From Candidatus Altimarinota bacterium (GTDB taxonomy: Bacteria; Patescibacteriota; Gracilibacteria; Peribacterales; Peribacteraceae): a DNA stretch of 64,000 nucleotides. Shown here piece by piece: positions 10,428 through 61,723 of this stretch (the stretch's first letter is position 1; every line of letters starts with the position of its first letter). The DNA lies in contig CAVOCY010000001.1 of assembly GCA_963694385.1 (NCBI GenBank), positions 2,186-66,185 of the forward strand. Reading direction: 5' to 3'. Under the pieces are notes generated by a model. The model was given only the letters and a program-made list of their open reading frames with translations, was not told the DNA's origin and did not search any database. Both the position numbers and the translations under genes were made by a program.

Positions 10428-10504
10428 GAAGTAAGTTTTAATGTACTTACTTGTGTTGGTCACGTGTGACCACGGTCTTTTTACACCAGAGCAGGGAGAA
10501 ACTG

Positions 10505-10855
10505 ATGTCTGCCATTTTTGAAAGAACAATGGATGGCGCTCTTGTCATTCTCACAATCAATCGGAAAGTTCTTGCCGGGGCAGTGGACCCCAAGCTATTC
10601 AAAAAAGAGGCGTGTAGTGCAGTCGAAATCTGTACTGAGGGCTACACTGTCCTCATCGATCTCTCTAAAGTAGAGAAAATCGACGTACGCTTTCTTGAAG
10701 TACTGAAAGTCTTGCAAGATCAAGCAGATAGGAACAGCGCGAACTTTGCCCTTCGTGTGGTAAATGCAAACGTTGTAGATGCCATTAAAAGATTCGACGA
10801 GCTCGCTACCATCCAAATAATCGAGGAGGTAACTCGGCTCGTTGCCACCAAATAG
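10505..10855 (+). CDS. STAS-like domain protein (anti-sigma-antagonist fold, tentative)
   Basis: About 116 aa from the ATG at 10505, preceded by GGAGAA. The pattern ..VLTINRKVLAG....F.......GYTVLIDLSKVEKIDVRFLEVL.. resembles STAS/SpoIIAA. There is no partner kinase nearby. Confidence 0.4.
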   Translation: MSAIFERTMDGALVILTINRKVLAGAVDPKLFKKEACSAVEICTEGYTVLIDLSKVEKIDVRFLEVLKVLQDQADRNSANFALRVVNANVVDAIKRFDELATIQIIEEVTRLVATK

Positions 10856-10887
10856 TGATCGTCGGTATAACCACCGATACAAGAAAA

Positions 10888-10921
10888 AGTCCTGCCTCAC
10901 ACTCGAGGCAGGACTGTTTTT
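10888..10921 (+). terminator. Rho-independent terminator
   Basis: An 11-bp stem AGTCCTGCCTC / GAGGCAGGACT with a 6-nt loop, followed by GTTTTT. Confidence 0.8.
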
Positions 10922-10984
10922 AAATTCTACTTCTCACCGCACCCCTGCCTGCCGGCAGATCAGTAGGAGTGCTCTTGTTGGTAA

Positions 10985-11048
10985 TGTGATTGTTGATTGG
11001 TGATTTGTCATTCGATTATGTTGTACTAATCACGTATCACAAATCACG
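10985..11048. repeat. Inverted pair of heptamer arrays: (NGTGATT)x4 / loop / (AATCACN)x3
   Basis: Read directly: TGTGATT GTTGATT GGTGATT TGTCATT ... AATCACG TATCACA AATCACG. It lies in a convergent intergenic spacer. Confidence 0.8.
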
Positions 11049-11095
11049 TGATCTACTTAATACTTCTACAATGCTGGCCGAAGACCCGCGCTGTT

Positions 11096-25253: not shown

Positions 25254-27620
25254 CTATTTTTTCTTTGCTCCCCATGCCCCCTTCTTTCTTGGTGGTGCAT
25301 TGCGCTTCTTTTCGAGGAGTTCACAGGCTGTAATCAAATCGAGATCCTCTGGGTTAAAACGCTTCGGAACAGAAACGTTTGTCGTTCCATCAGTAATATA
25401 TGGCCCATAGCGACCAGTTTTTACTTCTACATCCCCTTTGGTATTCGGGTCTTTCCCAAGTACTTTAATCGGCTCTGCTTCTTTTTTCTTGCGGTCTTTT
25501 GCCGTCGCTATAAGTTCTTCTGCCTGTGGTAGATCAACTGTTAACGGGTCAACATCTTCTGGAAGGGATACAGTTACTTTTCCCCACTTGATGTACGGCC
25601 CATAGCGACCACGGTTCACCGTCATATCTTCTCCGTCTTTTTGCGTTAATGTACGTGGGAAGCTAAGGAGTGCGAGTGCATCTTCGAGTGTCACTGTTTC
25701 TTTAGTCATACCTGTAGAAAGGCTAGAACTTTTTGGCTTGCCCTTAATCTTTCCATCTTTTACATCTGCAGGAGTTCCTACCTGAATGTACGGGCCGAAA
25801 CGCCCAGTAAGTACGACAATATTAAGACCTGTTTCTTTGTCGACCCCCAGTACTTTTTCTTTAAGGACGTCTTCTTTTTTTACTTCTTTTCCTTTGCTAT
25901 CAACAAGCTTCTTAAATGGGATATAGAATCCTTTAAGGAACGCCGTACGATCTTCTTTTCCTTCGGCAATATCATCCAGCTTGTCTTCCATGTTTGCCGT
26001 GAACTGCAGGCTAACAATGTCAGTAAAATGTTCGGTAAGAAGATCTGTCACCGTGAAGGCAACATCCTCTGGTGCAAGTTGCTTACCATCTTTTCGAATG
26101 TATCCACGTGCTTGCACGGTAGAAATTGTTGGAGCGTATGTACTCGGTCGACCGATACCTTCGTCCTCAAGCTTCTTCACCAGACTCGCCTCTGTGTAAC
26201 GCGGAGGTGGCTTGGTAAAGTGCTGCTCTGGGGTAATCTCTTCCTGCTTTAGGGTTTCTCCTTGTGTAAGTTCTGGAAGGAATTTGTCTCCCGTTTGCTC
26301 ATTTCCTTCTTCGTCATCTTTACGGTGCTGATCTTGTGATGCATCCGTGCTTTCTGTGTAGACACGGTAGTATCCATCAAAGATGACCGTCTGTCCTGTC
26401 GCGCGAAAGATGTACTGAGCAACAGTAATGTCTGCTCCTATTCTTTTGAGTTCTGCCGAAGTCATCTGCGTTGCCATCGTTCTGTTCCAGATGAGTGTGT
26501 AAAGTTTTAGCTGTTGATGATCGAGCACCTCTTTAAGAGAAGCTGGAGTCCGAGACATTTCTGTTGGGCGAATAGCTTCGTGTGCTTCTTGTGCTCCTTT
26601 ACTTTTGGTTTTGTACTTACGAGGAGTAGACAACACATACTCTCGACCATACTGACTTTCGATCGTAGCCTTCGCATCTGTTAGAGCCTTTGCACTTAAG
26701 CTCACACTATCTGTACGCATGTAGGTGATAAGACCTGTGGTCTCTTCTCCTTTACCAAGGCTCATTCCCTCATAAAGTTGCTGGGCTACCACCATTGTCT
26801 GCTTTACAGAGAAACCTAACTTTCGACCTGCTTCTTGCTGCAATGTTGATGTTGTAAATGGCGCTGGAGGATTTTTCTTGAGATCTTTTTCTTCGATCTC
26901 TGCAACGGCCCAATCTTTACCATCGATATCTTTTAATACTTGGTCAGACTCTTCTTGTGATGTTGGCACAAACTTTTTTCCATCCTTCTGACGCAACCCT
27001 GCAGTAAATATTTCTGCATTTTCTTTTGCAAGCTCTGCATCAATCGTCCAATACTCCTCTGCATTAAAGGCTTGAATTTCTCGCTCTCTATCAACAATGA
27101 TACGTACAGCAACCGACTGCACACGTCCTGCAGAGAGTCCGCGGTACACCGTTTTCCAAAGGAATGGGGAAAGCGTGTATCCCACAAGTCGGTCGAGAAT
27201 ACGCCTCGCTTGTTGTGCTTCTACTAACTTATTATCAATCTCTCTTGGACTTGCAACCGCCTCATTAATGGCAGATTTGGTAATCTCATGGAATACAATG
27301 CGTTTTACAGGCTGATCTTTTTTCGGCTTAAGTGCCTGCACAAGATGCCAACCTATAGCTTCTCCTTCCCGGTCTTCATCAGTTGCGATCCAGAGGCATT
27401 CTGCCTCTTTCATCGCCTTACGTAAGGCGGTCACCGTACTCTTTTTTTCATCAGGAATTTCGTACTCTGGCTCGAAGTCACCATCAGTATCTACTGCAAG
27501 ACCTGAGCTTGGGAGATCACGAATGTGTCCCATACTCGCAAGCACGTTGTAGTCTTTCCCCAAAAATTTCTTAATGGTTTTTGCCTTCGTCGGGCTCTCT
27601 ACGATTACAAGTTGTGACAT
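25254..27620 (-). CDS. topA: DNA topoisomerase I
   Basis: 788 aa with a TOPRIM N-terminus (VIVESPTKAKTI), the active-site region ITYMRTDS, C-terminal GR(Y/F)GPYI repeats and a Lys-rich tail. Confidence 0.95.
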   Translation of the reverse strand: MSQLVIVESPTKAKTIKKFLGKDYNVLASMGHIRDLPSSGLAVDTDGDFEPEYEIPDEKKSTVTALRKAMKEAECLWIATDEDREGEAIGWHLVQALKPKKDQPVKRIVFHEITKSAINEAVASPREIDNKLVEAQQARRILDRLVGYTLSPFLWKTVYRGLSAGRVQSVAVRIIVDREREIQAFNAEEYWTIDAELAKENAEIFTAGLRQKDGKKFVPTSQEESDQVLKDIDGKDWAVAEIEEKDLKKNPPAPFTTSTLQQEAGRKLGFSVKQTMVVAQQLYEGMSLGKGEETTGLITYMRTDSVSLSAKALTDAKATIESQYGREYVLSTPRKYKTKSKGAQEAHEAIRPTEMSRTPASLKEVLDHQQLKLYTLIWNRTMATQMTSAELKRIGADITVAQYIFRATGQTVIFDGYYRVYTESTDASQDQHRKDDEEGNEQTGDKFLPELTQGETLKQEEITPEQHFTKPPPRYTEASLVKKLEDEGIGRPSTYAPTISTVQARGYIRKDGKQLAPEDVAFTVTDLLTEHFTDIVSLQFTANMEDKLDDIAEGKEDRTAFLKGFYIPFKKLVDSKGKEVKKEDVLKEKVLGVDKETGLNIVVLTGRFGPYIQVGTPADVKDGKIKGKPKSSSLSTGMTKETVTLEDALALLSFPRTLTQKDGEDMTVNRGRYGPYIKWGKVTVSLPEDVDPLTVDLPQAEELIATAKDRKKKEAEPIKVLGKDPNTKGDVEVKTGRYGPYITDGTTNVSVPKRFNPEDLDLITACELLEKKRNAPPRKKGAWGAKKK

Positions 27621-27670
27621 GTCTGGGAGGGTAGAGAGAAGAGGGTGGGGTTGTCAAAGGAAGACTTGAG

Positions 27671-27727
27671 GAAGTGATGCGTGAAGAGAAATGTGTAATA
27701 CGTACCTTACTCATTACTTCTCACTTA
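27671..27727. repeat. Inverted heptamer arrays: (NNNGTRA)x5 then (TYACNNN)x3
   Basis: GAAGTGA TGCGTGA AGAGAAA TGTGTAA TACGTAC / TTACTCA TTACTTC TCACTTA. Positions 27681-27699 match 58292-58310 at 17 of 19 nt. Confidence 0.75.
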
Positions 27728-27953
27728 CAACTAAAATACCGCTACAGCACTTGCTTTCCCGCCCAAAACATTGCATGGATGTCAAATCAACTTTCCACGC
27801 TGATCATCTTTGGTATTCAGGTAAACTCCGCTTGAGTTAGCCATTTAAATGACTTTTTAAGTGCTATTTTTCTCTGGACCACGTATTTTTGGCTTGCGTA
27901 AGCCCAATGCGAACGTAAACTTTTACTTGAGTTACATCTTTCCCCTTTATCCT

Positions 27954-28235
27954 ATGTCCAAACAGGATATCATTAACGCCATCGCAGACGCCGCTGGAAT
28001 CACTAAGCGATCTGCAGCTGCATCACTTGATGCACTCTGTACACTCGTAACAAAGGAGCTCAAGAAGGGCAACTCTGTTACAATTACTGGTTTCGGAACC
28101 TTCAAGGTTTCTAACCGAGCTGCTCGTACTGGGGTAAACCCACGTAACCCAACGCAGCGTATTTCTATTCCTGCTATGAGGGTTCCATCCTTCAAAGCTG
28201 GTAAGACTCTTAAGGATGCTGTTCGCAGTAGCTAA
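27954..28235 (+). CDS. hup: HU/IHF-family DNA-binding protein
   Basis: 93 aa from the internal ATG: MSKQDIINAIA...GFGTFKVSNRAARTGVNPRNP....IPA. Confidence 0.9.
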   Translation: MSKQDIINAIADAAGITKRSAAASLDALCTLVTKELKKGNSVTITGFGTFKVSNRAARTGVNPRNPTQRISIPAMRVPSFKAGKTLKDAVRSS

Positions 28236-28253
28236 GAGTTTCAATTTAAATGT

Positions 28254-28284
28254 AAAAAGCCTCCTTTTATAGGGGGCTTTTTTC
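28254..28284 (+). terminator. Rho-independent terminator after hup
   Basis: AAAAAGCCTCC-ttttata-GGGGGCTTTTTT. Confidence 0.8.
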
Positions 28285-28323
28285 TTCTCATAAGCAATAA
28301 ACCTCGCTATTCTTGGAGTCAAT

Positions 28324-28872
28324 ATGGACGCCAAGCTTATCGAAGAAACCGTCGGCAATCTCTTAAAGCAGCTAGGTCTGCCTTTTGACTCTATTACAGT
28401 AGAAGAGCGTGAGGATATGACCCATGCAGAGATTACCTCTTCTATAGCAAGTCGTATTATCGGCTGGCATGGCGAGACGCTTAACTCTATTCAGCATCTT
28501 GCAAAGTCTATTATCCGCCAAAAACAAGGATTGGACCGTAGTCCATTTTTAGTACTGGATGTCGATGGCTACCGTGCATCCCAAGAAGCGAAGGTAAAGA
28601 AAATAGCAGACCAGAAAGCAGACTTTGTACGGCGCACCGCAAGCCGTGTGGCCCTTGCCCCTATGAGTCCATACTTCCGTCGTATTGTGCACTTGCACGT
28701 TGCGAATACTCCAGAGCTATCTGATCTTACAACAGAGAGTATTGGAGACGGAGACTACCGTCAGGTAGTACTAAAACTAAAAGATGAGTCTACAAAAATA
28801 CAAGACGGTGAGGAGCTTGCTCCTGTGATTGTCGAAAGTAAGGACGACGGATTGGATAACTTAGATATTTAG
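28324..28872 (+). CDS. Jag/KhpB-like R3H RNA-binding protein
   Basis: 182 aa with a KH-like segment and an R3H region (APMSPYFRRIVHLHV). Confidence 0.7.
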   Translation: MDAKLIEETVGNLLKQLGLPFDSITVEEREDMTHAEITSSIASRIIGWHGETLNSIQHLAKSIIRQKQGLDRSPFLVLDVDGYRASQEAKVKKIADQKADFVRRTASRVALAPMSPYFRRIVHLHVANTPELSDLTTESIGDGDYRQVVLKLKDESTKIQDGEELAPVIVESKDDGLDNLDI

Positions 28873-28920
28873 GGGTGAGGTTGGCCTAGAGAGTGACTTG
28901 GGATGCAGTTATTAAAACTA

Positions 28921-30003
28921 CTATTTGGCTTCCCGAAGCTCTTCGTAAAGCTTTTTCTCTTGGCGGGAAAGCTTTTTTGGGATATCAATACGTACCGTTA
29001 CATAATGATCTCCGAGTCTCGAAGAATTAAGTTGTGGCACACCCTTAGATTTTAAGCGCATCACTTGCCCCGGCTGTGAGCCCGCTGGAATTTTGAGTGT
29101 GATATCTCCGTGTACTGTCGGGATAGAAATTTCTGTACCCAATGTTGCATCTACAACAGAGATAGAAACTTCAGATCGGATATCTGTACCATCGCGCACA
29201 AAGCGGTTATCTGTAACTACTTGAATTATGACAAAAAGATCTCCTGCAGCACCACCTTTTTTACCGGCATTGCCTTGCCCAGAAATACGAAGCGTCTGAC
29301 CGTCATCTATTCCCGCAGGAATATCGAGGGTTAGTTGTGTCTTCTCGCGTTTGATACCTTCACCACTACAATTCTTGCATCGGTGTTCTGGTATTTTCCC
29401 GGCCCCCTCACACTTTGCACACAGTACTGATTGCTGCACGACACCAAAAAATGACTGCGCAGTCCGTGTAATCTGCCCTGTGCCACTGCACTCTGAACAA
29501 CTCGTTACTGATCCACCTTCGGCACCCGAGCCTTTGCAAGGCTTACACGATACATACTTTTCTATGGCGATTGTTTTCTTTGCACCACTCACTACTTCCG
29601 AAAACTCTATGCTGATACGCACCTGAAGATCGGATCCGCGATTGTCAGGCTTACCACCTCTTCTTCCACCTCCACCTCCTCCTCCGCCAAAAAAACTGGA
29701 GAAGATATCACCGAGGTCTCCCATATCACCTTGTTGAAATCCAGAAAAATCAAACCCGCCAGAGCCTTGCCCTCCACCTCCTGGTCCTCCGGCTGAGCCA
29801 AATGTGTCGTACTGCTGCCGGCGTTTTGGATTACCGATGATCTCATACGCCTCATTGATCTCCTTAAATTTCTGCTCTGCCTTCTTATCCCCTTTGTGCT
29901 TATCTGGGTGCCATTCTTTGGAAAGACTACGATATTTCTTTTTAATATCCGCTTCTGAGGCAGATTTGTCTATTCCGAGGATGGAGTAATAGTCTTTGGA
30001 CAT
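28921..30003 (-). CDS. dnaJ: Chaperone DnaJ
   Basis: 360 aa with a J domain (HPD), a G/F-rich linker and four CxxCxGxG zinc motifs. No dnaK or grpE lies adjacent. Confidence 0.95.
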   Translation of the reverse strand: MSKDYYSILGIDKSASEADIKKKYRSLSKEWHPDKHKGDKKAEQKFKEINEAYEIIGNPKRRQQYDTFGSAGGPGGGGQGSGGFDFSGFQQGDMGDLGDIFSSFFGGGGGGGGRRGGKPDNRGSDLQVRISIEFSEVVSGAKKTIAIEKYVSCKPCKGSGAEGGSVTSCSECSGTGQITRTAQSFFGVVQQSVLCAKCEGAGKIPEHRCKNCSGEGIKREKTQLTLDIPAGIDDGQTLRISGQGNAGKKGGAAGDLFVIIQVVTDNRFVRDGTDIRSEVSISVVDATLGTEISIPTVHGDITLKIPAGSQPGQVMRLKSKGVPQLNSSRLGDHYVTVRIDIPKKLSRQEKKLYEELREAK

Positions 30004-30027
30004 GGGTCAAGGGAGAGGATAGTGGAA

Positions 30028-30098
30028 AATGTAATGCGTGACCCGTAATTTGTGATTCGATATTTACGAATCACGAGTTATCAATCGCTAGTCACTTA
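30028..30098. repeat. Inverted heptamer arrays: (NNNGTRA)x5 / (TYACNNN)x5, symmetric about 30063
   Basis: AATGTAA TGCGTGA CCCGTAA TTTGTGA TTCGATA | TTACGAA TCACGAG TTATCAA TCGCTAG TCACTTA. It lies in the divergent spacer upstream of dnaJ. Confidence 0.8.
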
Positions 30099-30165
30099 TT
30101 GTAAAATATTGTATAAATATACATAAACATGAGCTAAAATCCCAGAAATCTGCTATAATATCTTG

Positions 30166-31197
30166 ATGGTTTCAATAAACACACACATTACAAGAAATGC
30201 TTTGCGATGGGCTACCATTGTACTCGGTGTCTTTTCGTTGGCACTAGTAGTGTATGGATTTTCTCGAGGAGGTTTTGCTTCTATAGAGGGGCGTCTTCTT
30301 CCGAAGAGTCAAACACGTAAAATAGAATGGGTGACGATCACTGCTAAGCAGGTACTGTCGGGAGCTACTATCCCTGCAGACCGCAATGTGATTGTTCACA
30401 TACCAGAAGAGATTACACGCATTACCCGTAAGGTACTGTTTGGCCGAAGGGGAGATAATGGACTCAATGGTATGAAAGGTACTCGCTATTGGGGATACTG
30501 CTTTCCACAAAACATTCACGACTCGAGTAATAATGTTCGAAGAGGGTTCCCTGGAGACTTGTTTCTCTCGGAAGCAGAGAGAGAATATCGCCGCCGAGAG
30601 CTTATTGCACAACGTCGTCGTACATTCTCAATATTTGAAAACCTAACAGCAACCGACCTCAATGAAACACAAAATCGATTACAGTCTCGTATCCGACACC
30701 AAGTAGAAATCTTTACTGGTGGAAACACCTGCTATGTTATGACAGAAAAGTCTATCCCTGTCGGAGCAGATACGGATGGTGATGGTCTTAATAACTCACT
30801 CGAGCGTGCGTATGGATCTGATAATAAAAATCCTGATACTGATGGTGATGGAATCCTAGATGGACTCGAAGTATTCCGCTTAGGAAGTCACCCTACCAAG
30901 CGTGATTCTGATGGTGACGGTATTATCGATGGTATCGAAGATGCAAACCGTAATGGTCGCTTTGAGCCTGGAGAAACCAACCCTACAGAATGGGATACCG
31001 ATCGTGATGGTCTCTGTGATGGTATTTGTAAGGTAAACAAAGGACAGGACTTGCGAGGAGAGGACAAAAACCTCAATGGTATCTACGAACCTGACAAAGG
31101 AGAATATAACCCTCGAAATGTCGATAGTGACGGAGATGGCATATTTGATGAGCATGAGGTATATCTCTGTGTTCTTGGTGGAGGTGATGATTGTTAA
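30166..31197 (+). CDS. Membrane-anchored protein with thrombospondin type-3 (Ca-binding) repeats
   Basis: N-terminal TM helix. There are five D(T/S)D(G/R)DG(I/L)xDxxE-type repeats ([59 protein letters not shown]). TATAAT lies at 30154-30159, 6 nt before the ATG. Confidence 0.8.
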
Positions 31198-34714: not shown

Positions 34715-34731
34715 TGTTAAACAGTGTAAAC

Positions 34732-34816
34732 GGAAAGTGGAAAGTGGAAAGTGGAAAGTGGAAAAAGCTACAGTATATTAACTTGATTGTTTTCCGTTTT
34801 CCGTTTTCCACTTCTA
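34732..34816. repeat. (GGAAAGT)x4+1 / 22-nt loop / (GTTTTCC)x3+1 inverted heptamer arrays
   Basis: Read directly. Array B overlaps the stop of the TPM gene. Plus-strand RNA would pair fully using G.U wobbles, whereas minus-strand RNA would have A.C mismatches. Confidence 0.9.
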
Positions 34817-36287: not shown

Positions 36288-36367
36288 GAATTATGAATGA
36301 AGTATTATGAATTATGAAAAGAAATGCACGCAAATCCTCGTAATTCTTAATTCTTAATTCTTAATTC
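36288..36367. repeat. (GAATTAT-like)x5 / loop / (TTAATTC)x4 inverted heptamer arrays
   Basis: GAATTAT GAATGAA GTATTAT GAATTAT GAAAAGA ... GTAATTC TTAATTC TTAATTC TTAATTC. Array B encodes the last codons of the DUF368 gene. Confidence 0.85.
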
Positions 36368-37228
36368 TCTTGCTGCGACAACTTCTATAACAATTACTAG
36401 CACTGCTCCTAGCGCCATAAATCCAACGACTTGTGCAGTGTCTCCATTCCAATCTGGAATCATGTTTTCTGTTCCTACTTTCCATGGCCAGATTTTTCTG
36501 AGGCTTCCAATCATCAGCCCTGTTAGAAGTGCGACAGTTAAATCGTGATACTTTGCAAAGAGCCATCCAAGTACCTGAGAGAAGAGGACCAAACCTACAA
36601 CAGCACCTATACCGATATATGCGATAGGGCCAACGTCACGATTGTTTACGGCAGAGAGTACAAACTCATACTTACCAAGAAGCACGAGAAGAAATGCACC
36701 AGATACTCCTGGGAGAATCATTGCGCAGATAGTAATAGCTCCACAGAGCACAAGGAACCATGCAGCATCTGGAGTCTGTACAGGCACTAGCCCAACGAGA
36801 ACATACGCAACGGCACATCCAAAGAGTAATGCGATGACGCGACGTGGAATCCATTTCTTTACACGTACGCCTACAACAAAGATTGAAGCAAATACTAATC
36901 CAAAGAAGAAACTCCATACGCGCGTTGGCTCTGTCTCGAGCAAATGCTCTAATGGAGAAGCAAGTAAAGCAGCAGCAAACAGAATTCCTGAGCCAACAGA
37001 AATAAGGAATCCCCATTTTGGGAGTGTAAATGCGTGATGAATTTTGCCGTGGACTATGTCTCGCCAAAATGCTTTCTTTCCGAAGAGGGCAATTGCATCA
37101 ATCAGCTCTTCGTATATTCCTAAAATAAACGCCATTGTTCCTCCGGAAACACCGGGGACAATGTCTGCAGCCCCCATACAGAAGCCACGAAGGAAGAGTC
37201 CGATCTGTCGACGTGCAATATGAATCAT
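36347..37228 (-). CDS. DUF368 family membrane protein (family recently implicated in undecaprenyl-phosphate translocation)
   Basis: GAADIVPGVSGGTMAFILGIYEELI near the N-terminus and a second PGVSGAF motif. It is polytopic. Confidence 0.8.
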   Translation of the reverse strand: MIHIARRQIGLFLRGFCMGAADIVPGVSGGTMAFILGIYEELIDAIALFGKKAFWRDIVHGKIHHAFTLPKWGFLISVGSGILFAAALLASPLEHLLETEPTRVWSFFFGLVFASIFVVGVRVKKWIPRRVIALLFGCAVAYVLVGLVPVQTPDAAWFLVLCGAITICAMILPGVSGAFLLVLLGKYEFVLSAVNNRDVGPIAYIGIGAVVGLVLFSQVLGWLFAKYHDLTVALLTGLMIGSLRKIWPWKVGTENMIPDWNGDTAQVVGFMALGAVLVIVIEVVAARELRIKN

Positions 37229-37864: not shown

Positions 37865-37926
37865 AATATAAAGAAATCGAGGAAATCAACGAATTCCAGA
37901 AAATCGAGGATCCTTGTTTTCTTTGA

Positions 37927-58284: not shown

Positions 58285-58358
58285 GTAGATTGTGAAGAGA
58301 AATAAGTAATGAGTGAAGAGTAATTATCTATCTTTACTTTTCACTTTTCACTTTTAAC
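58285..58358. repeat. Inverted 7-nt-periodic arrays: GTAG/GTGA/GAAA/GTAA/GTGA/GTAA cores then TTAC/TCAC/TCAC/TAAC cores
   Basis: The cores start at 58285, 58292, 58299, 58306, 58313, 58320 | 58334, 58341, 58348, 58355. Array B encodes the murA C-terminus (KVKSEK). Confidence 0.75.
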
Positions 58359-59686
58359 TCTTGCTTGATGTTTGCTTCTACATGCTCCTGCTTAATAGTT
58401 CTTATAACTTCAGTCGGATCTTCCAGTTCTACCTTCGTAATATTTGCTCCAAGGCTGCGTAACTTATCATCAAGATGATCATATCCACGCTCGATATATC
58501 GTACGTCTGTAATTGTTGTTTCTCCTTCTGCACAGAGTGCAGCAATCACCATAGCAGCACCTGCGCGGATATCATTACTCGCAACTGTGTGACCACGCAA
58601 AGTAGTTGGCCCAATGATCAACGCCTGATGTGAATTGAGAATCTCTATTTGTGCTCCCATTTTTTCCAGCTCGTAGAGATAAGCCATACGACCTTCGAAT
58701 AACCGCTCAAACAAGCGAGATACTCCTGTAGCCTGTGTCATAGCAACACCAAGTGGTGCCTGAAGATCTGTCGGTAATCCTGGGAAGATATTCGTCCGTG
58801 CCTCTATTGCATTGAGTGAGGAGATCTCTCCATCTACAAACAATACTTTTTCTGCTGAGTCGTACTTCCACTCTGCACCCATACGCCTTAGGACATCGAG
58901 AAAGTTTGTAAGATGATCATATTCGGTGTCATGCAAACGCACTTTACCACGTGTAACAAGAGCTGCGATTGCAAGCCCTCCAGCCTCTAGATAATCCGAA
59001 GGAACACGATACTCAGCACACGCAAGTTGCGTGCGACCTCGAACTGTAACGGTGTGCGTTCCGATACCTTCTACTTCTGCACCCATGGCACAGATAAATT
59101 TCTCTACTGCTTGAACGTGTGGTTCTGCAGCTGCCATTTCGATACGTGTTTCCCCTGGTGTCAGTGCCGCTGCAAGAATGGCATTCTCTGTAGCAGTAAC
59201 CGAAAACTCTGGAAGGATAACGTGTCCAGGCTTGAGCGTTCCTTGCAGATGCAACACATCATTACTACTCAAATCTTGCGCTCCGAGTTGTGTCAGTGCA
59301 CGAATGTGCGCTTCTACCGGACGCTTCCCAAGTACACATCCTCCTGGGTAACACATCTCCACTACTCCAAAGCGTGCTAGTAGTGGCCCAAGCAATACGA
59401 TAGAACCACGAAGTTTGGAAACAAGCTCTGCTGGAATTGGTTTGCTTTGTAAATTCTGCGTTTGGATACGTACTGTCCCATCTTCGAAACTTGTCTCGGC
59501 ACCTAGGTAGTTGAGGATCTGTAGCATCACTTTAATGTCCCGCAAAAATGGAACGTTGGTCAGCACTGTCTCTCCTTTACAAAGTACCGACGCAGCAATC
59601 AACGGCAACGCTGCGTTTTTGGATCCACTGATGGTGACGTCTCCTTTGAGGGGCACCCCTCCTTGAATGCGATAACGGATATCCAT
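58334..59686 (-). CDS. murA: UDP-N-acetylglucosamine 1-carboxyvinyltransferase
   Basis: GSKNAALPLIAAS and the active-site Cys context PGGCVLGKRPVEAH. TATAAT lies 8 nt upstream of the ATG. Confidence 0.95.
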   Translation of the reverse strand: MDIRYRIQGGVPLKGDVTISGSKNAALPLIAASVLCKGETVLTNVPFLRDIKVMLQILNYLGAETSFEDGTVRIQTQNLQSKPIPAELVSKLRGSIVLLGPLLARFGVVEMCYPGGCVLGKRPVEAHIRALTQLGAQDLSSNDVLHLQGTLKPGHVILPEFSVTATENAILAAALTPGETRIEMAAAEPHVQAVEKFICAMGAEVEGIGTHTVTVRGRTQLACAEYRVPSDYLEAGGLAIAALVTRGKVRLHDTEYDHLTNFLDVLRRMGAEWKYDSAEKVLFVDGEISSLNAIEARTNIFPGLPTDLQAPLGVAMTQATGVSRLFERLFEGRMAYLYELEKMGAQIEILNSHQALIIGPTTLRGHTVASNDIRAGAAMVIAALCAEGETTITDVRYIERGYDHLDDKLRSLGANITKVELEDPTEVIRTIKQEHVEANIKQELKVKSEK

Positions 59687-59737: not shown

Positions 59738-59796
59738 TTAGTAGCTAGTAGCTAGGAGATAGGGGGCCTAGTCCCAAACTACTAACTACTAGCCCC
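59738..59796. repeat. (TTAGTAG CTAGTAG CTAGGAG ATAGGGG) / loop / (CTACTAA CTACTAG CCCC) inverted heptamer arrays
   Basis: Read directly between the lspA stop and the murA start. AGGGGGC and GCCCCT can also pair. Confidence 0.8.
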
Positions 59797-60349: not shown

Positions 60350-61723
60350 ATGAAAGCTTCATTCATCGCCGCTATTAACCAAATCTGTTCCGAGAAAAAC
60401 GTTGGTCCAGACCAAGTACTCGATGCCATTAAGCAGGCAATCGCTACTGCCTACCGTAAGGACTACGGAAACAAAGAGCAGGAGATTCGTGTTGATCTTG
60501 AAGAAGGCCGTGACGAGCCGGTAATTCTATTGGTAAAAGAAGTAGTAGAAGAAGTGGAGAACGAAAACTTTGAAATCTCTTTAGCAGAGGCTAAGAAGAT
60601 TAAGAGTGATGCAGAAGAAGGAGATGAGATTACAATGGACGTAACTCCAGATGGATACGGACGTATCGCTGCGCAATCTGCAAAGCAGGTGATCTTGCAG
60701 AAGCTACAAGAAGCAGAGAAGCAGAGCTTGTACGATATGTTTAAAGATCGTGAGCACGAACTTCTTACTGCAACAGTTACAAAAGTAGAACCAAACTGGG
60801 TGACCTTAGAGATAGAAGGCATGACGGTTTCTATGCCATGGCGTGAACAGATTCCTGGTGAGCATTACTACACAGGTAAGCGTATCCGTGTGTACCTTGA
60901 TACTGTTGAGCAAACAGGTAAAGGTCCTCAGCTACGCATCAGCAGAACACACCCAGACCTCGTAAAGAAACTCTTGGAACTAGAAATTCCAGAAGTCCGC
61001 AACGAAGATGTAGAGATTAGAGCGATCGCTCGTGATGCAGGATTCCGTAGCAAGGTTGCGGTAAGTAGCAACCAGCCAAGCATTGATCCTATCGGAGCAT
61101 GTGTTGGACAAAAGGGTGTTCGTATTCAAGCAGTGATGGATGAAATTAACGGAGAACGTGTTGATATGATTGAGTGGAGTGATGATCCTATTAAATTGAT
61201 CTCTACTGCACTACAGCCTGCAGCAATCTCTGCTGTAATTATCGTAAATGGTACAGAGCACCTCGACGAAGAAGGTCGAAAAGTTAAGAAGCGTGCAGCT
61301 GTGTTTGTAGAAGAAGCTCAGCGCCCTATGGCTATCGGTCGTAAGGGGCAAAACATTCGTCTTGCAACAGATCTTACAAGTTTTGAACTCGACATGTACA
61401 ACTACGAAGAGCTCCCTGCCTTTAAGGCCAAGCTTGCAGAGATAAAGGGTGAAGAGATTGAAGTTGTTGAATTTGAGACAGACGAAGATGGTGATGTGAT
61501 TGTAAAAGGAGAATCCGAAGGAGCAGTAGCAGCAGCTGATGAAGGAAAAACAACTGTGAAGCCAAAATCTGCAAAAAAGCCTGAGCCAAAGAAAGAGGTG
61601 GCATCAGCCTCCGCCGAGGCTACGGCCGACAAGGAGGTGACCGAGGAAGCACCAGCTGAAGAAGTAATAGAAAAGGAAATCGAAGAAACCAAGGAAATCG
61701 AGGAAGAGAAGAAGGCTGAATAA
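60350..61723 (+). CDS. nusA: Transcription termination/antitermination factor NusA with an acidic K/E-rich tail
   Basis: N-terminal domain, S1 domain and two KH domains (GACVGQKGVRIQ, AIGRKGQNIRLA). No rimP lies upstream and no infB downstream. Confidence 0.9.
   Translation: MKASFIAAINQICSEKNVGPDQVLDAIKQAIATAYRKDYGNKEQEIRVDLEEGRDEPVILLVKEVVEEVENENFEISLAEAKKIKSDAEEGDEITMDVTPDGYGRIAAQSAKQVILQKLQEAEKQSLYDMFKDREHELLTATVTKVEPNWVTLEIEGMTVSMPWREQIPGEHYYTGKRIRVYLDTVEQTGKGPQLRISRTHPDLVKKLLELEIPEVRNEDVEIRAIARDAGFRSKVAVSSNQPSIDPIGACVGQKGVRIQAVMDEINGERVDMIEWSDDPIKLISTALQPAAISAVIIVNGTEHLDEEGRKVKKRAAVFVEEAQRPMAIGRKGQNIRLATDLTSFELDMYNYEELPAFKAKLAEIKGEEIEVVEFETDEDGDVIVKGESEGAVAAADEGKTTVKPKSAKKPEPKKEVASASAEATADKEVTEEAPAEEVIEKEIEETKEIEEEKKAE

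What the first reader, a model, noticed from the sequence alone, without database searches (positions are those of the whole stretch)
30028..30098. A related sub-family: GTRA cores phased every 7 nt, mirrored by TYAC cores, at four or more loci
At 30028-30098 five units NNNGTRA are followed immediately by five units TYACNNN, symmetric about 30063. Only the 4-nt core is conserved, and the 3-nt spacers vary. The same organisation is found at 27671-27727 (upstream of topA), 58285-58358 (between the murA 3' end and the next gene's 5' end) and 10985-11048 (GTGA/TCAC cores). Positions 27681-27699 and 58292-58310 share 17 of 19 nt (GTGAAGAGAAATnnGTAAT), so these copies are homologous. Phased short cores with free spacers resemble arrays bound by oligomeric RNA- or DNA-binding proteins (conceptually like TRAP with spaced GAG/UAG triplets) more than a simple stem. 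Two copies sit in divergent promoter regions of topA/hup and dnaJ.
Basis: seen in the sequence. Interest (0 to 1): 0.6.

Follow-up and report, generated by a model that had tools for sequence, protein, structure and literature searches.

The report
Degenerate heptamer-repeat hairpins in Peribacter spacers
The phased GTRA/TYAC cores are real, but they are worn copies of a very common 7-base tandem-repeat hairpin that fills gene spacers in this uncultured marine CPR bacterium; intact versions of the same hairpin enclose a small gene otherwise known from ribosomal-RNA 'intervening sequences'.

Summary
At 30028-30098, 4 of 5 left units carry GTRA and 3 of 5 right units carry TYAC, symmetric about 30063. 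The other three loci are similar. Four GTRA cores in phase at period 7 occur 27 times in the 0.98-Mb genome against 0 in shuffles.

It is not a separate system. The genome (Candidatus Peribacter, CPR) holds 122 near-perfect period-7 arrays against 0-1 at periods 8, 10 and 11, and 66 intergenic hairpins built from 7- or 9-nt arrays. All four loci fold as hairpins.

Between species the arrays come and go:
- The murA copy is unique to this lineage.
- The topA copy is absent from three congeners.
- The dnaJ copy persists in five species with changed units.

Context is unspecific: divergent, convergent and co-directional spacers are used in proportion to their length.

Both PF05635 (23S-rRNA-IVS protein) genes of this genome sit in the loop of such hairpins. 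One is flanked by GTRA/TYAC arrays. The same holds for 25 of 31 loci across the family.

Best reading: empty, decaying, IVS-like heptamer-array hairpins. A dedicated binding protein is not excluded; the pentameric IVS protein is the candidate.

The parts
30028..30062 (.). 5' arm of the reported hairpin: five 7-nt units NNNGTRA (cores GTAA, GTGA, GTAA, GTGA, GATA)
   Evidence: Read. Pairs with 30064-30098 in the minimum-free-energy fold (-23.1 kcal/mol, z -3.6).
30064..30098 (.). 3' arm: five 7-nt units TYACNNN (cores TTAC, TCAC, TTAT, TCGC, TCAC)
   Evidence: The orthologous arms in four other species keep an array hairpin with different units.
30151..30168 (+). TGCTATAAT extended -10 box followed 6 nt later by the ATG at 30166 of the TSP3-repeat gene: an apparently leaderless promoter downstream of the array
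   Evidence: Invariant in 10 aligned relatives. Genome-wide peak of -10 boxes ending 6-9 nt before the ATG.
27671..27727 (.). Second GTRA/TYAC hairpin (units GAAGTGA TGCGTGA AGAGAAA TGTGTAA / TTACTCA TTACTTC TCACTTA), about 14 nt upstream of the topA -35 box
   Evidence: -15.8 kcal/mol, z -1.9. Absent as a clean indel in L001, L002 and L004; different arrays in L003 and L005.
27628..27657 (-). Likely topA promoter: TTGACA (27652-27657), 18-nt spacer, TACCCT (27628-27633), 7 nt to the ATG at 27620 (leaderless)
   Evidence: Both boxes are conserved in six aligned relatives, with or without the array. This is an inference from the consensus, not mapped.
58292..58361 (.). Third hairpin: GTGAAGA GAAATAA GTAATGA GTGAAGA GTAATTA / loop / TTACTTT TCACTTT TCACTTT TAACTCT. 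The 3' arm supplies the stop codon and the last about 9 codons of murA (minus strand).
   Evidence: -22.5 kcal/mol, z -3.65. G003, G002 and G006 have only the seed TCACTAGTCACTTTT here. The murA model ends about 30 aa before the ORF end.
10977..11058 (.). Fourth hairpin: TGTGATT GTTGATT GGTGATT TGTCATT / AATCACG TATCACA AATCACG
   Evidence: -22.3 kcal/mol, z -2.7. It lies in a 0.68-kb stretch that is absent in G006, G001 and G007.
10886..10925 (.). Canonical bidirectional intrinsic terminator (GTCCTGCCTC...GAGGCAGGAC flanked by A and T runs) after the STAS-domain ORF 10505-10855
   Evidence: Read; STAS_2 hit. It shows that this genome has ordinary terminators besides the array hairpins.

Best explanation
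The four loci are aged, point-mutated members of a genome-wide class of hairpins. Each arm is a tandem array of a 7-nt unit and the two arms are inverted copies of each other.

How I think it works:
- The arrays are born as near-perfect simple-sequence repeats by slippage of 7-nt units.
- They acquire an inverted partner and are tolerated wherever DNA is free. That means between a stop codon and the next promoter or start, upstream of -35 boxes, and in C-terminal tails. The fold-back geometry leaves the flanking signals adjacent.
- They then decay. The paired 4-5-nt core outlasts the unpaired 2-3 nt, which gives the 'conserved core, free spacer' look.

The class is IVS-like. Full copies carry a PF05635 (S23p / 23S-rRNA-intervening-sequence protein, Avd-like four-helix bundle) gene in the loop, and one of these copies is flanked by GTRA/TYAC arrays. 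The window's four copies are empty. When transcribed, such stems would be double-stranded RNA substrates for the RNase III that the genome encodes.

Shown: the periodicity, the hairpins, the turnover between species, the lack of context specificity, and the PF05635 association.

Inferred: origin by slippage and inverted duplication, tolerance by geometry, RNase III processing, and the absence of a locus-specific regulatory role.
For: Genome-wide class:
- Period-7 arrays number 122, against 0 in a Markov shuffle and 0-1 at periods 8, 10 and 11. They are about 3.8-fold enriched in non-coding DNA.
- Perfect arrays of the same units exist elsewhere: (TCACTCA)x6.5, (TCACTCT)x7, (GTGATTG)x4, (TTACTCA)x3.5.
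- All four loci fold as hairpins.
- There are 45 period-7 and 21 period-9 intergenic hairpins.
- Their distribution over divergent, convergent and co-directional spacers (18/12/34) follows spacer length.
- In co-directional spacers the 5' arm starts within -6..+8 nt of the stop codon in 20 of 34 cases. The 3' arm ends 14 nt or less before the next start in 15 of 34.

Turnover:
- The topA array is absent from three congeners.
- The murA array is unique to this lineage.
- The dnaJ array is kept in 5 species with changed units, and a hairpin of -19 to -29 kcal/mol remains.
- The degenerate copies are stable in the population: contigs from four metagenome runs of different studies are identical over 27500-30300.

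PF05635 link:
- Both genes of this genome lie in array-hairpin loops. One is at contig C7:3233-3547, between GTGATGA GTAAAAA GTAATAA GTAA and (TCACTCA)x6.5.
- 25 of 31 PF05635 loci from 30 genomes of the family have bracketing periodic inverted arrays that score above all 113 shifted controls.
- Gene copy number tracks array density (rho 0.70, n=14). Four of five genomes without the gene show 0 arrays in 314 kb.
- RNase III is present.

Literature:
- Over-representation of heptamers and the slippage idea (PMC4679880 and PMC4692102, citing Mrazek 2007).
- Coxiella's S23p-carrying IVS has a 28-bp terminal stem, strain-variable heptameric repeats and RNase III excision (PMC4990558).
Against: - No transcript data exist for this organism, so no RNA-level step is shown.
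- Conservation of GTRAT at 62 of 64 core positions across four species in the dnaJ spacer, while the neighbouring spacer DNA is unalignable, suggests constraint rather than pure decay.
- Two rules are not explained by neutral slippage. First, the 5' arm is always the G-containing arm (42:3 and 20:1 here, 33:0 in G044). Second, GGAAA-family arms are always the hetero pair GTGGAAA/TTTTCCG (18 of 18).
- Hairpin loops hold no remnants of PF05635 genes, and the arms differ at every locus, so 'empty copy of a mobile element' is not demonstrated.
- One genome without PF05635 (G139) has arrays.
Confidence: 0.6

Rival explanations
1. The arrays are binding sites for an oligomeric nucleic-acid-binding protein that reads a 4-5-nt core every 7 nt. 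The concrete candidate is the PF05635/S23p protein, related to a five-chain solved structure, encoded inside full copies. An alternative is a ribbon-helix-helix protein of the omega-repressor type, whose operators are contiguous 7-bp heptads WATCACW.
For: - Core GTRAT is conserved and two positions are free across four species, without covariation.
- The GTRATTN units at 10985 and 30028 read AATCACG/TATCACA on the other strand. That is the ATCAC core of omega heptads (own knowledge of the inc18 plasmid literature; a lead only).
- In both divergent spacers the arrays lie in DNA upstream of the core promoters, where an RNA role is unlikely.
- PF05635 genes are physically enclosed by arrays in 25 of 31 loci and co-vary with array density.
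- The C7 protein matches 2GSC, an entry with five chains, described as a homopentameric toroid in PMC4990558.
Against: - Dozens of unrelated unit sequences share the architecture, but this genome has only two PF05635 genes.
- No omega-family gene was found in 8 genomes of the genus; the control was silent, so this is weak.
- Arrays also lie inside coding regions and in convergent spacers.
- Arrays are present or absent among congeners with no change to the flanking promoter boxes.
Confidence: 0.2
2. The hairpins are functional RNA elements. In a genome without Rho they would act as bidirectional terminators or insulators, or as RNase III processing and stability sites between cistrons.
For: - No rho gene in 8 of 8 genomes of the genus, with the control positive in 12 of 14.
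- RNase III is present.
- The 3' arm is always the pyrimidine-rich arm, as expected for a weak RNA:DNA hybrid in both directions.
- The hairpins abut stop codons.
- The precedent is RNase III excision of IVS stems (PMC4990558).
Against: - The hairpins are as frequent in divergent, promoter-only spacers as expected from spacer length.
- In 15 of 34 co-directional spacers there is no room for a promoter after the hairpin, so termination there would silence the next gene.
- G.U versus A.C mismatches show no bias toward the sense strand: 70 against 77 pairs, 15 against 15 hairpins.
- There is no U tract.
- A canonical terminator sits next to the 10985 hairpin.
- No Rfam family matches.
Confidence: 0.15
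3. The pattern is a chance alignment of short words in AT-rich spacer DNA.
For: Only 4 of 5 and 3 of 5 cores are exact at the reported site, and the z-score of the 27671 fold is weak (-1.9).
Against: 49 against 0.85 and 27 against 0 phased runs in shuffles. Period-8 phasing is absent here and found in only 10 of 121 class genomes, against 42 of 121 for period 7.
Confidence: 0.01

Closest known systems
Heptanucleotide long simple-sequence repeats and cyanobacterial STRR (Mrazek et al. 2007; Mazel et al. 1990; as summarised in PMC4679880 and PMC4692102)
   Same: Tandem 7-nt units. Strong over-representation of period 7 alone. Enrichment in intergenic DNA. Several unit families per genome.
   Different: Here nearly all intergenic arrays are organised as inverted pairs with a fixed G-arm-first polarity. 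The host is a 1-Mb CPR genome. A sizeable share sits in frame inside genes.
Xanthomonas GGGAATC / Nostoc GGGGAYT intergenic heptamer arrays (Rehm et al. 2015, PMC4692102)
   Same: Arrays lie between the same genes in related species but vary in length and sequence. Some are arranged as inverted repeats able to form stem-loops. The S23p whose structure was solved (2GSC) comes from Xanthomonas.
   Different: Those units are G-rich and form quadruplexes. The GTRA units are not G4-prone, and no single unit dominates here.
TAACTGA direct repeats of Beggiatoaceae, cyanobacteria and Bacteroidetes (MacGregor 2015, PMC4679880)
   Same: Heptamer arrays close to start codons in genomes with few canonical ribosome-binding sites. 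A binding protein (S1, Csp, CsrA) was proposed but not found.
   Different: There one unit occurs as direct repeats, with only one inverted set. Here there are many units, mostly inverted pairs, and they are not confined to leaders.
23S rRNA intervening sequences carrying an S23p ORF (Coxiella, Leptospira; PMC4990558)
   Same: A long terminal inverted-repeat stem encloses a PF05635 gene. Heptameric direct repeats of variable number occur in the stem region. RNase III is available.
   Different: The elements here lie in protein-gene spacers, not in 23S rRNA helices. The four window copies have no ORF. The arms are whole arrays and differ from locus to locus.
Omega repressor heptad operators of inc18 plasmids (5'-WATCACW-3', cooperative ribbon-helix-helix binding; own knowledge)
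   Same: Contiguous 7-bp units with a conserved 5-bp core (ATCAC = GTGAT) and 2 variable positions, in direct and inverted orientation, near promoters.
   Different: No omega homologue was found. There are about 17 GTRA loci plus more than 100 arrays of other units. Many are not at promoters.

Membership tests
Heptanucleotide LSSR / STRR-type arrays | Head-to-tail copies of a 7-nt unit, three or more | tested here: met
   The copies are degenerate at the four loci; perfect arrays of the same units occur elsewhere.
Heptanucleotide LSSR / STRR-type arrays | Period 7 over-represented relative to other periods and to shuffled sequence | tested here: met
   122 arrays against 0 (shuffle) and 0-1 (periods 8, 10, 11). 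The same holds in G044, G046 and G064.
Heptanucleotide LSSR / STRR-type arrays | Length and sequence variable between related species at the same spacer | tested here: met
S23p-carrying intervening sequence (IVS) | Terminal inverted repeats forming a long stem | tested here: met
   for the four loci; for the gene-bearing copies.
S23p-carrying intervening sequence (IVS) | PF05635 ORF in the loop | tested here: not met
   The four window loci have loops of 7-16 nt and no ORF, and no PF05635 remnants occur anywhere else in the genome. The feature is met only for C7:3140-3645 and C4:16086-16640.
S23p-carrying intervening sequence (IVS) | Inserted in a 23S rRNA helix | tested here: not met
   All four loci lie between or at the ends of protein genes.
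S23p-carrying intervening sequence (IVS) | Excised from the transcript by RNase III | not testable with these tools
   An rnc gene is present, but no RNA runs are available.
Omega-type heptad operator | Contiguous 7-bp units with an ATCAC core | tested here: inconclusive
   AATCACG TATCACA AATCACG at 11026-11046 and AATCAC at 30069-30074 fit. The GTRAWGA loci (27671, 58285) do not.
Omega-type heptad operator | Cognate omega / ribbon-helix-helix protein encoded | tested here: inconclusive
   PF07764 was not found in 8 genomes, but the control genomes were also silent. Other RHH families were not searched.
TRAP / HutP-type RNA-binding arrays | GAG/UAG triplets with 2-3 nt (TRAP) or 4 nt (HutP) spacers in the 5' leader of the regulated operon | tested here: not met
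   The core is GTRA, not a (G/U)AG triplet. In the divergent spacers the arrays lie upstream of apparently leaderless promoters.
REP/BIME elements mobilised by RAYT | Y1 (IS200/IS605-like) transposase in the genome | tested here: not met
   PF01797 is absent from G000, G003, G004 and G007, with the control positive in 6 of 14.
Intrinsic terminator | GC-rich stem followed by a U tract | tested here: not met
   No T run follows any of the four hairpins. The scan gives no more sites than shuffles. A true terminator lies separately at 10886-10925.

The most novel reading that the evidence does not exclude
The heptamer-array hairpins are the cognate nucleic-acid sites of the S23p/Avd-like four-helix-bundle protein (PF05635) encoded in the loop of full copies. 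This protein, alone or with a polymerase, drives or stabilises 7-nt periodic array formation. If so, the long-unexplained heptamer repeats (STRR and LSSR of cyanobacteria, Xanthomonas, Bacteroidota and Beggiatoaceae) and the function of the IVS proteins would be two sides of one selfish system.
Probability: 0.12. Interest if true: 0.85.

Novelty: new variant of a known kind. Interest (0 to 1): 0.45.

Why it matters
As a regulatory site for topA, hup or dnaJ the finding does not hold up, so annotators should not read these arrays as operators.

The class it belongs to matters more:
- It occupies a large share of the scarce non-coding DNA of a 1-Mb CPR genome.
- It reaches into the ends of essential genes; the last codons and the stop of murA are array-encoded.
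- It obeys two strict and unexplained rules: G-arm-first polarity and hetero-arm pairing.
- It is statistically tied to PF05635 genes, whose function has been unknown since rRNA intervening sequences were described.

That tie makes two old questions directly testable with a purified protein and a few oligonucleotides: why heptamers, and what S23p does.

Tried and rejected
- Rho avoidance as the cause of the G-first polarity: rejected, no rho in the genus.
- RAYT/Y1-transposase mobilisation: rejected for this genome.
- Selection for a sense-strand RNA hairpin, tested by G.U versus A.C mismatches: no bias.
- G-poor leaders as the sole cause of polarity: insufficient, because convergent spacers show 10:2.
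- Species-specific covariation of arms, tested with chimeric folds: inconclusive. Arms are interchangeable because the cores are shared, and G002 was split badly.
- Rfam: only two tRNAs in the window.
- RNA-seq: no runs found.
- Population polymorphism: none at 27500-30300 in contigs of four runs, though contigs hide rare variants.
- Remnants of PF05635 genes in empty hairpin loops: none.
- Consensus promoter and terminator scan: not above shuffles.
- The murA hairpin as a transposed copy of another locus: no full-length match, only array-level similarity.
- Omega repressor gene: not found, but the control was uninformative.
- A cyanobacterial origin, my first guess from the STRR-like look: rejected. 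HIP1 is not enriched and the topA relatives are Candidatus Peribacter.

Full report
**Where this is.** The closest relatives of the window's topA are Candidatus Peribacter / Peregrinibacteria MAGs, at 84-93% amino-acid identity. The assembly has 978 kb in 43 contigs and 43.8% G+C, and the cyanobacterial HIP1 word is not enriched.
- The reported site lies between dnaJ (28921-30003, minus strand) and a TSP3-repeat gene (30166-31197, plus strand).
- The second site lies between topA (25254-27620, minus) and hup.
- The third overlaps the 3' end of murA (58334-59686, minus).
- The fourth lies in a convergent spacer.

**The observation.** The sequence at 30028-30098 reads AATGTAA TGCGTGA CCCGTAA TTTGTGA TTCGATA, T, TTACGAA TCACGAG TTATCAA TCGCTAG TCACTTA. 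So 4 of 5 GTRA cores and 3 of 5 TYAC cores are exact, and the centre at 30063 is right. The other three loci show the same plan with one imperfect unit each.

Three GTRA cores with 3-nt spacers occur 49 times in the genome against 0.85 in dinucleotide shuffles. Four occur 27 times against 0. Other spacings are at shuffle level, except spacer 5, which belongs to nonamer arrays. There are 22 runs at about 17 loci.

The 17-of-19 identity between 27681-27699 and 58292-58310 is exact. However, the shared 12-mer is one substitution away from the family dimer GTGAAGAGTAAT, which occurs at five places in three other loci. The two loci therefore share a unit family, and common descent is not shown.

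**It is one face of a genome-wide class.**
- A core-agnostic scan finds 122 near-perfect period-7 arrays, against none in a Markov shuffle and 0-1 at periods 8, 10 and 11.
There are also many private units.
- With my own gene calls (831 genes, 87% coding), 59 arrays are intergenic, 8 lie on gene edges and 55 lie inside genes. That is about 3.8-fold enrichment in non-coding DNA.
- In intergenic DNA there are 45 hairpins with period-7 arms and 21 with period-9 arms.
- The four loci fold as such hairpins (-23.1, -15.8, -22.5 and -22.3 kcal/mol; z -3.6, -1.9, -3.65, -2.7). Helices of about 5 bp formed by the cores are separated by small internal loops formed by the 'spacers'.

**Behaviour between species.**
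- *topA/hup spacer.* The array is a clean indel. L001, L002 and L004 read GGTATTTGA|CAAC, while the window, L003 and L005 carry unrelated arrays at that point. The flanking TTGACA and TACCCT boxes are conserved in all.
- *murA end.* G003, G002 and G006 have only TCACTAGTCACTTTT. The window has grown a 70-nt hairpin whose 3' arm now encodes the last codons and the stop of murA.
- *10985.* The hairpin lies in a 0.68-kb stretch, with a STAS-domain ORF and a true terminator, that G006, G001 and G007 lack.
- *dnaJ spacer.* Five species keep an array hairpin (-19 to -29 kcal/mol). In four of them the left arm keeps GTRAT at 62 of 64 positions while the other two positions vary. G002 has switched to GGATAGT/TGACTAT, and G001, G004 and G007 have no array.
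- *Covariation.* Swapping arms between species gives folds as good as the native ones, so there is no species-specific covariation.
- *Population.* Contigs from four metagenome runs of different studies are identical over 27500-30300. The degenerate copies are therefore stable.

**Context.**
- Periodic hairpins occur in divergent, convergent and co-directional spacers (18, 12 and 34), roughly in proportion to spacer length.
- In co-directional spacers the 5' arm starts within -6..+8 nt of the upstream stop codon in 20 of 34 cases. The 3' arm ends 14 nt or less before the next start in 15 of 34. The hairpin simply fills the gap between a stop and the next start or promoter.
- This organism has G-poor leaders without a Shine-Dalgarno signal. 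About 17% of genes have a -10 box ending 6-9 nt before the ATG, which suggests leaderless mRNAs.
- The gene at 30166 (invariant TGCTATAAT at 30151-30159) and topA look leaderless. The arrays at 30028 and 27671 therefore lie upstream of those promoters and are not part of those mRNAs.
- Transition mismatches in stems are G.U as often as A.C on the sense strand (70 against 77). I see no sign of selection for a sense-RNA fold.
- There is no rho in the genus, no Y1 transposase in this genome and no Rfam match.

**Two rules I cannot explain.**
- *Polarity.* The 5' arm is the G-containing arm and the 3' arm the C-containing arm in 42 of 45 period-7 hairpins and 20 of 21 period-9 hairpins. Non-periodic hairpins show 29:30. 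The rule holds in all gene contexts and in another genus with quite different units (33:0, G044). It is not significant in another family (11:6, G046).
- *Hetero arms.* All 18 GGAAA-family hairpins pair (GTGGAAA)n with (TTTTCCG)n, which gives two transition mismatches per unit. They never pair with the perfect complement, and their loops are unrelated. Avoidance of long perfect palindromes is a possible reason, but it is not tested.

**The link to IVS proteins.** I followed a lead in earlier notes of this scan and tested it myself.
- This genome has two PF05635 genes, and both sit in the loop of an array hairpin.
  - C4:16133-16486 lies between (GGAAAGT)x4.7 and TTTCCAC arrays.
- In the family, 36 of 41 genomes carry 1-24 copies.
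- Of 31 loci from 30 genomes, 25 have bracketing inverted periodic arrays that score above all 113 shifted controls.
- Array density rises with gene copy number (rho 0.70, p 0.005, n=14, not corrected for phylogeny). Four of five genomes without the gene show no array in 314 kb, and G139 is an exception.
- Across the class, phased GTRA at period 7 occurs in 42 of 121 genomes, against 10 of 121 at period 8. A few lineages prefer octamers.
- The C7 protein matches the Xanthomonas S23p structure 2GSC, which has five chains.
- In Coxiella, the S23p-carrying IVS has a 28-bp terminal stem, strain-variable heptameric repeats and RNase III excision (PMC4990558). RNase III is encoded here.
- Against a simple 'autonomous element and its empty copies' model: loops hold no gene remnants, and the arms differ at every locus.

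**Verdict.** The phasing is real and far beyond chance. The four loci are degenerate, empty members of an abundant IVS-like heptamer-array hairpin class, not a dedicated regulatory array for topA, hup or dnaJ.

The class itself corresponds to known but poorly understood heptamer repeats: STRR and LSSR, Xanthomonas GGGAATC and Beggiatoa TAACTGA (PMC4692102, PMC4679880). The Nostoc preprint 10.1101/2022.06.06.494920 shows only weak regulatory effects for such repeats.

The protein-binding idea survives only in a changed form, with the enclosed PF05635 protein as candidate. I put that at about one in five for binding of any kind, and at about one in eight for the strong version in which the protein creates the arrays.

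Noticed in passing
whole genome; examples in window 34722-34815, 36288-36368, 59739-59796: Polarity rule: in array hairpins the 5' arm is always the G-containing arm and the 3' arm the C-containing arm (42:3 for period 7, 20:1 for period 9; non-periodic hairpins 29:30). It also holds 33:0 in another genus. The only exceptions are GTTAAC-type units.
   Followed up: partly
window 34722-34815 and 17 other loci in the genome: All 18 GGAAA-family hairpins pair (GTGGAAA)n with (TTTTCCG)n, giving two transition mismatches per 7 nt. They never pair with the perfect complement, and their loops are unrelated in sequence and length.
   Followed up: partly
genome contigs C7:3140-3645 and C4:16086-16640 (outside the window): Two highly divergent PF05635 (23S rRNA IVS protein, Avd-like) genes each sit in the loop of a heptamer-array hairpin between housekeeping genes. 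The family is present in 1-24 copies in 36 of 41 genomes of this CPR family.
   Followed up: yes
window 37873-37910, 61674-61705 and about 20 other loci: A nonamer family (GAAATCGAG / CTCGATTTC) forms the same kind of inverted-array hairpins in spacers.
   Followed up: partly
whole genome; window 30151-30168 and 27620-27657: Start-codon upstream regions are G-poor (10-15% G) with no Shine-Dalgarno peak. In about 17% of genes a TATAAT-like box ends 6-9 nt before the ATG, which suggests widespread leaderless mRNAs. topA and the gene at 30166 are examples.
   Followed up: partly
genus level (8 genomes): No rho gene is detectable in any of the 8 genomes of the genus, although the search finds it in 12 of 14 control genomes.
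   Followed up: no
window 10428-11095: A 0.68-kb insert relative to three congeners carries a small STAS-domain ORF (10505-10855), a canonical bidirectional terminator (10886-10925) and the 10985 hairpin. G003 has a different 1.5-kb insert at the same place.
   Followed up: partly
window 58334-58363: The murA ORF runs about 30 aa beyond the family model. Its last about 9 codons and its TAA stop are encoded by the (ACTTTTC)n array, so repeat growth has rewritten the C-terminus of an essential gene.
   Followed up: partly
other genomes of the class (G055, G071, G098): Some lineages carry octamer arrays (for example GTAATCTT and GTAATTGA) in place of, or beside, heptamers. The preferred period therefore depends on the lineage.
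   Followed up: no
genome contig C6:37375-37445: A well-preserved GTRA/TYAC hairpin (AGTAATG x3 / TTACTCT TCACTTA) lies a few hundred bases upstream of the 23S rRNA gene, in the rRNA operon region.
   Followed up: no
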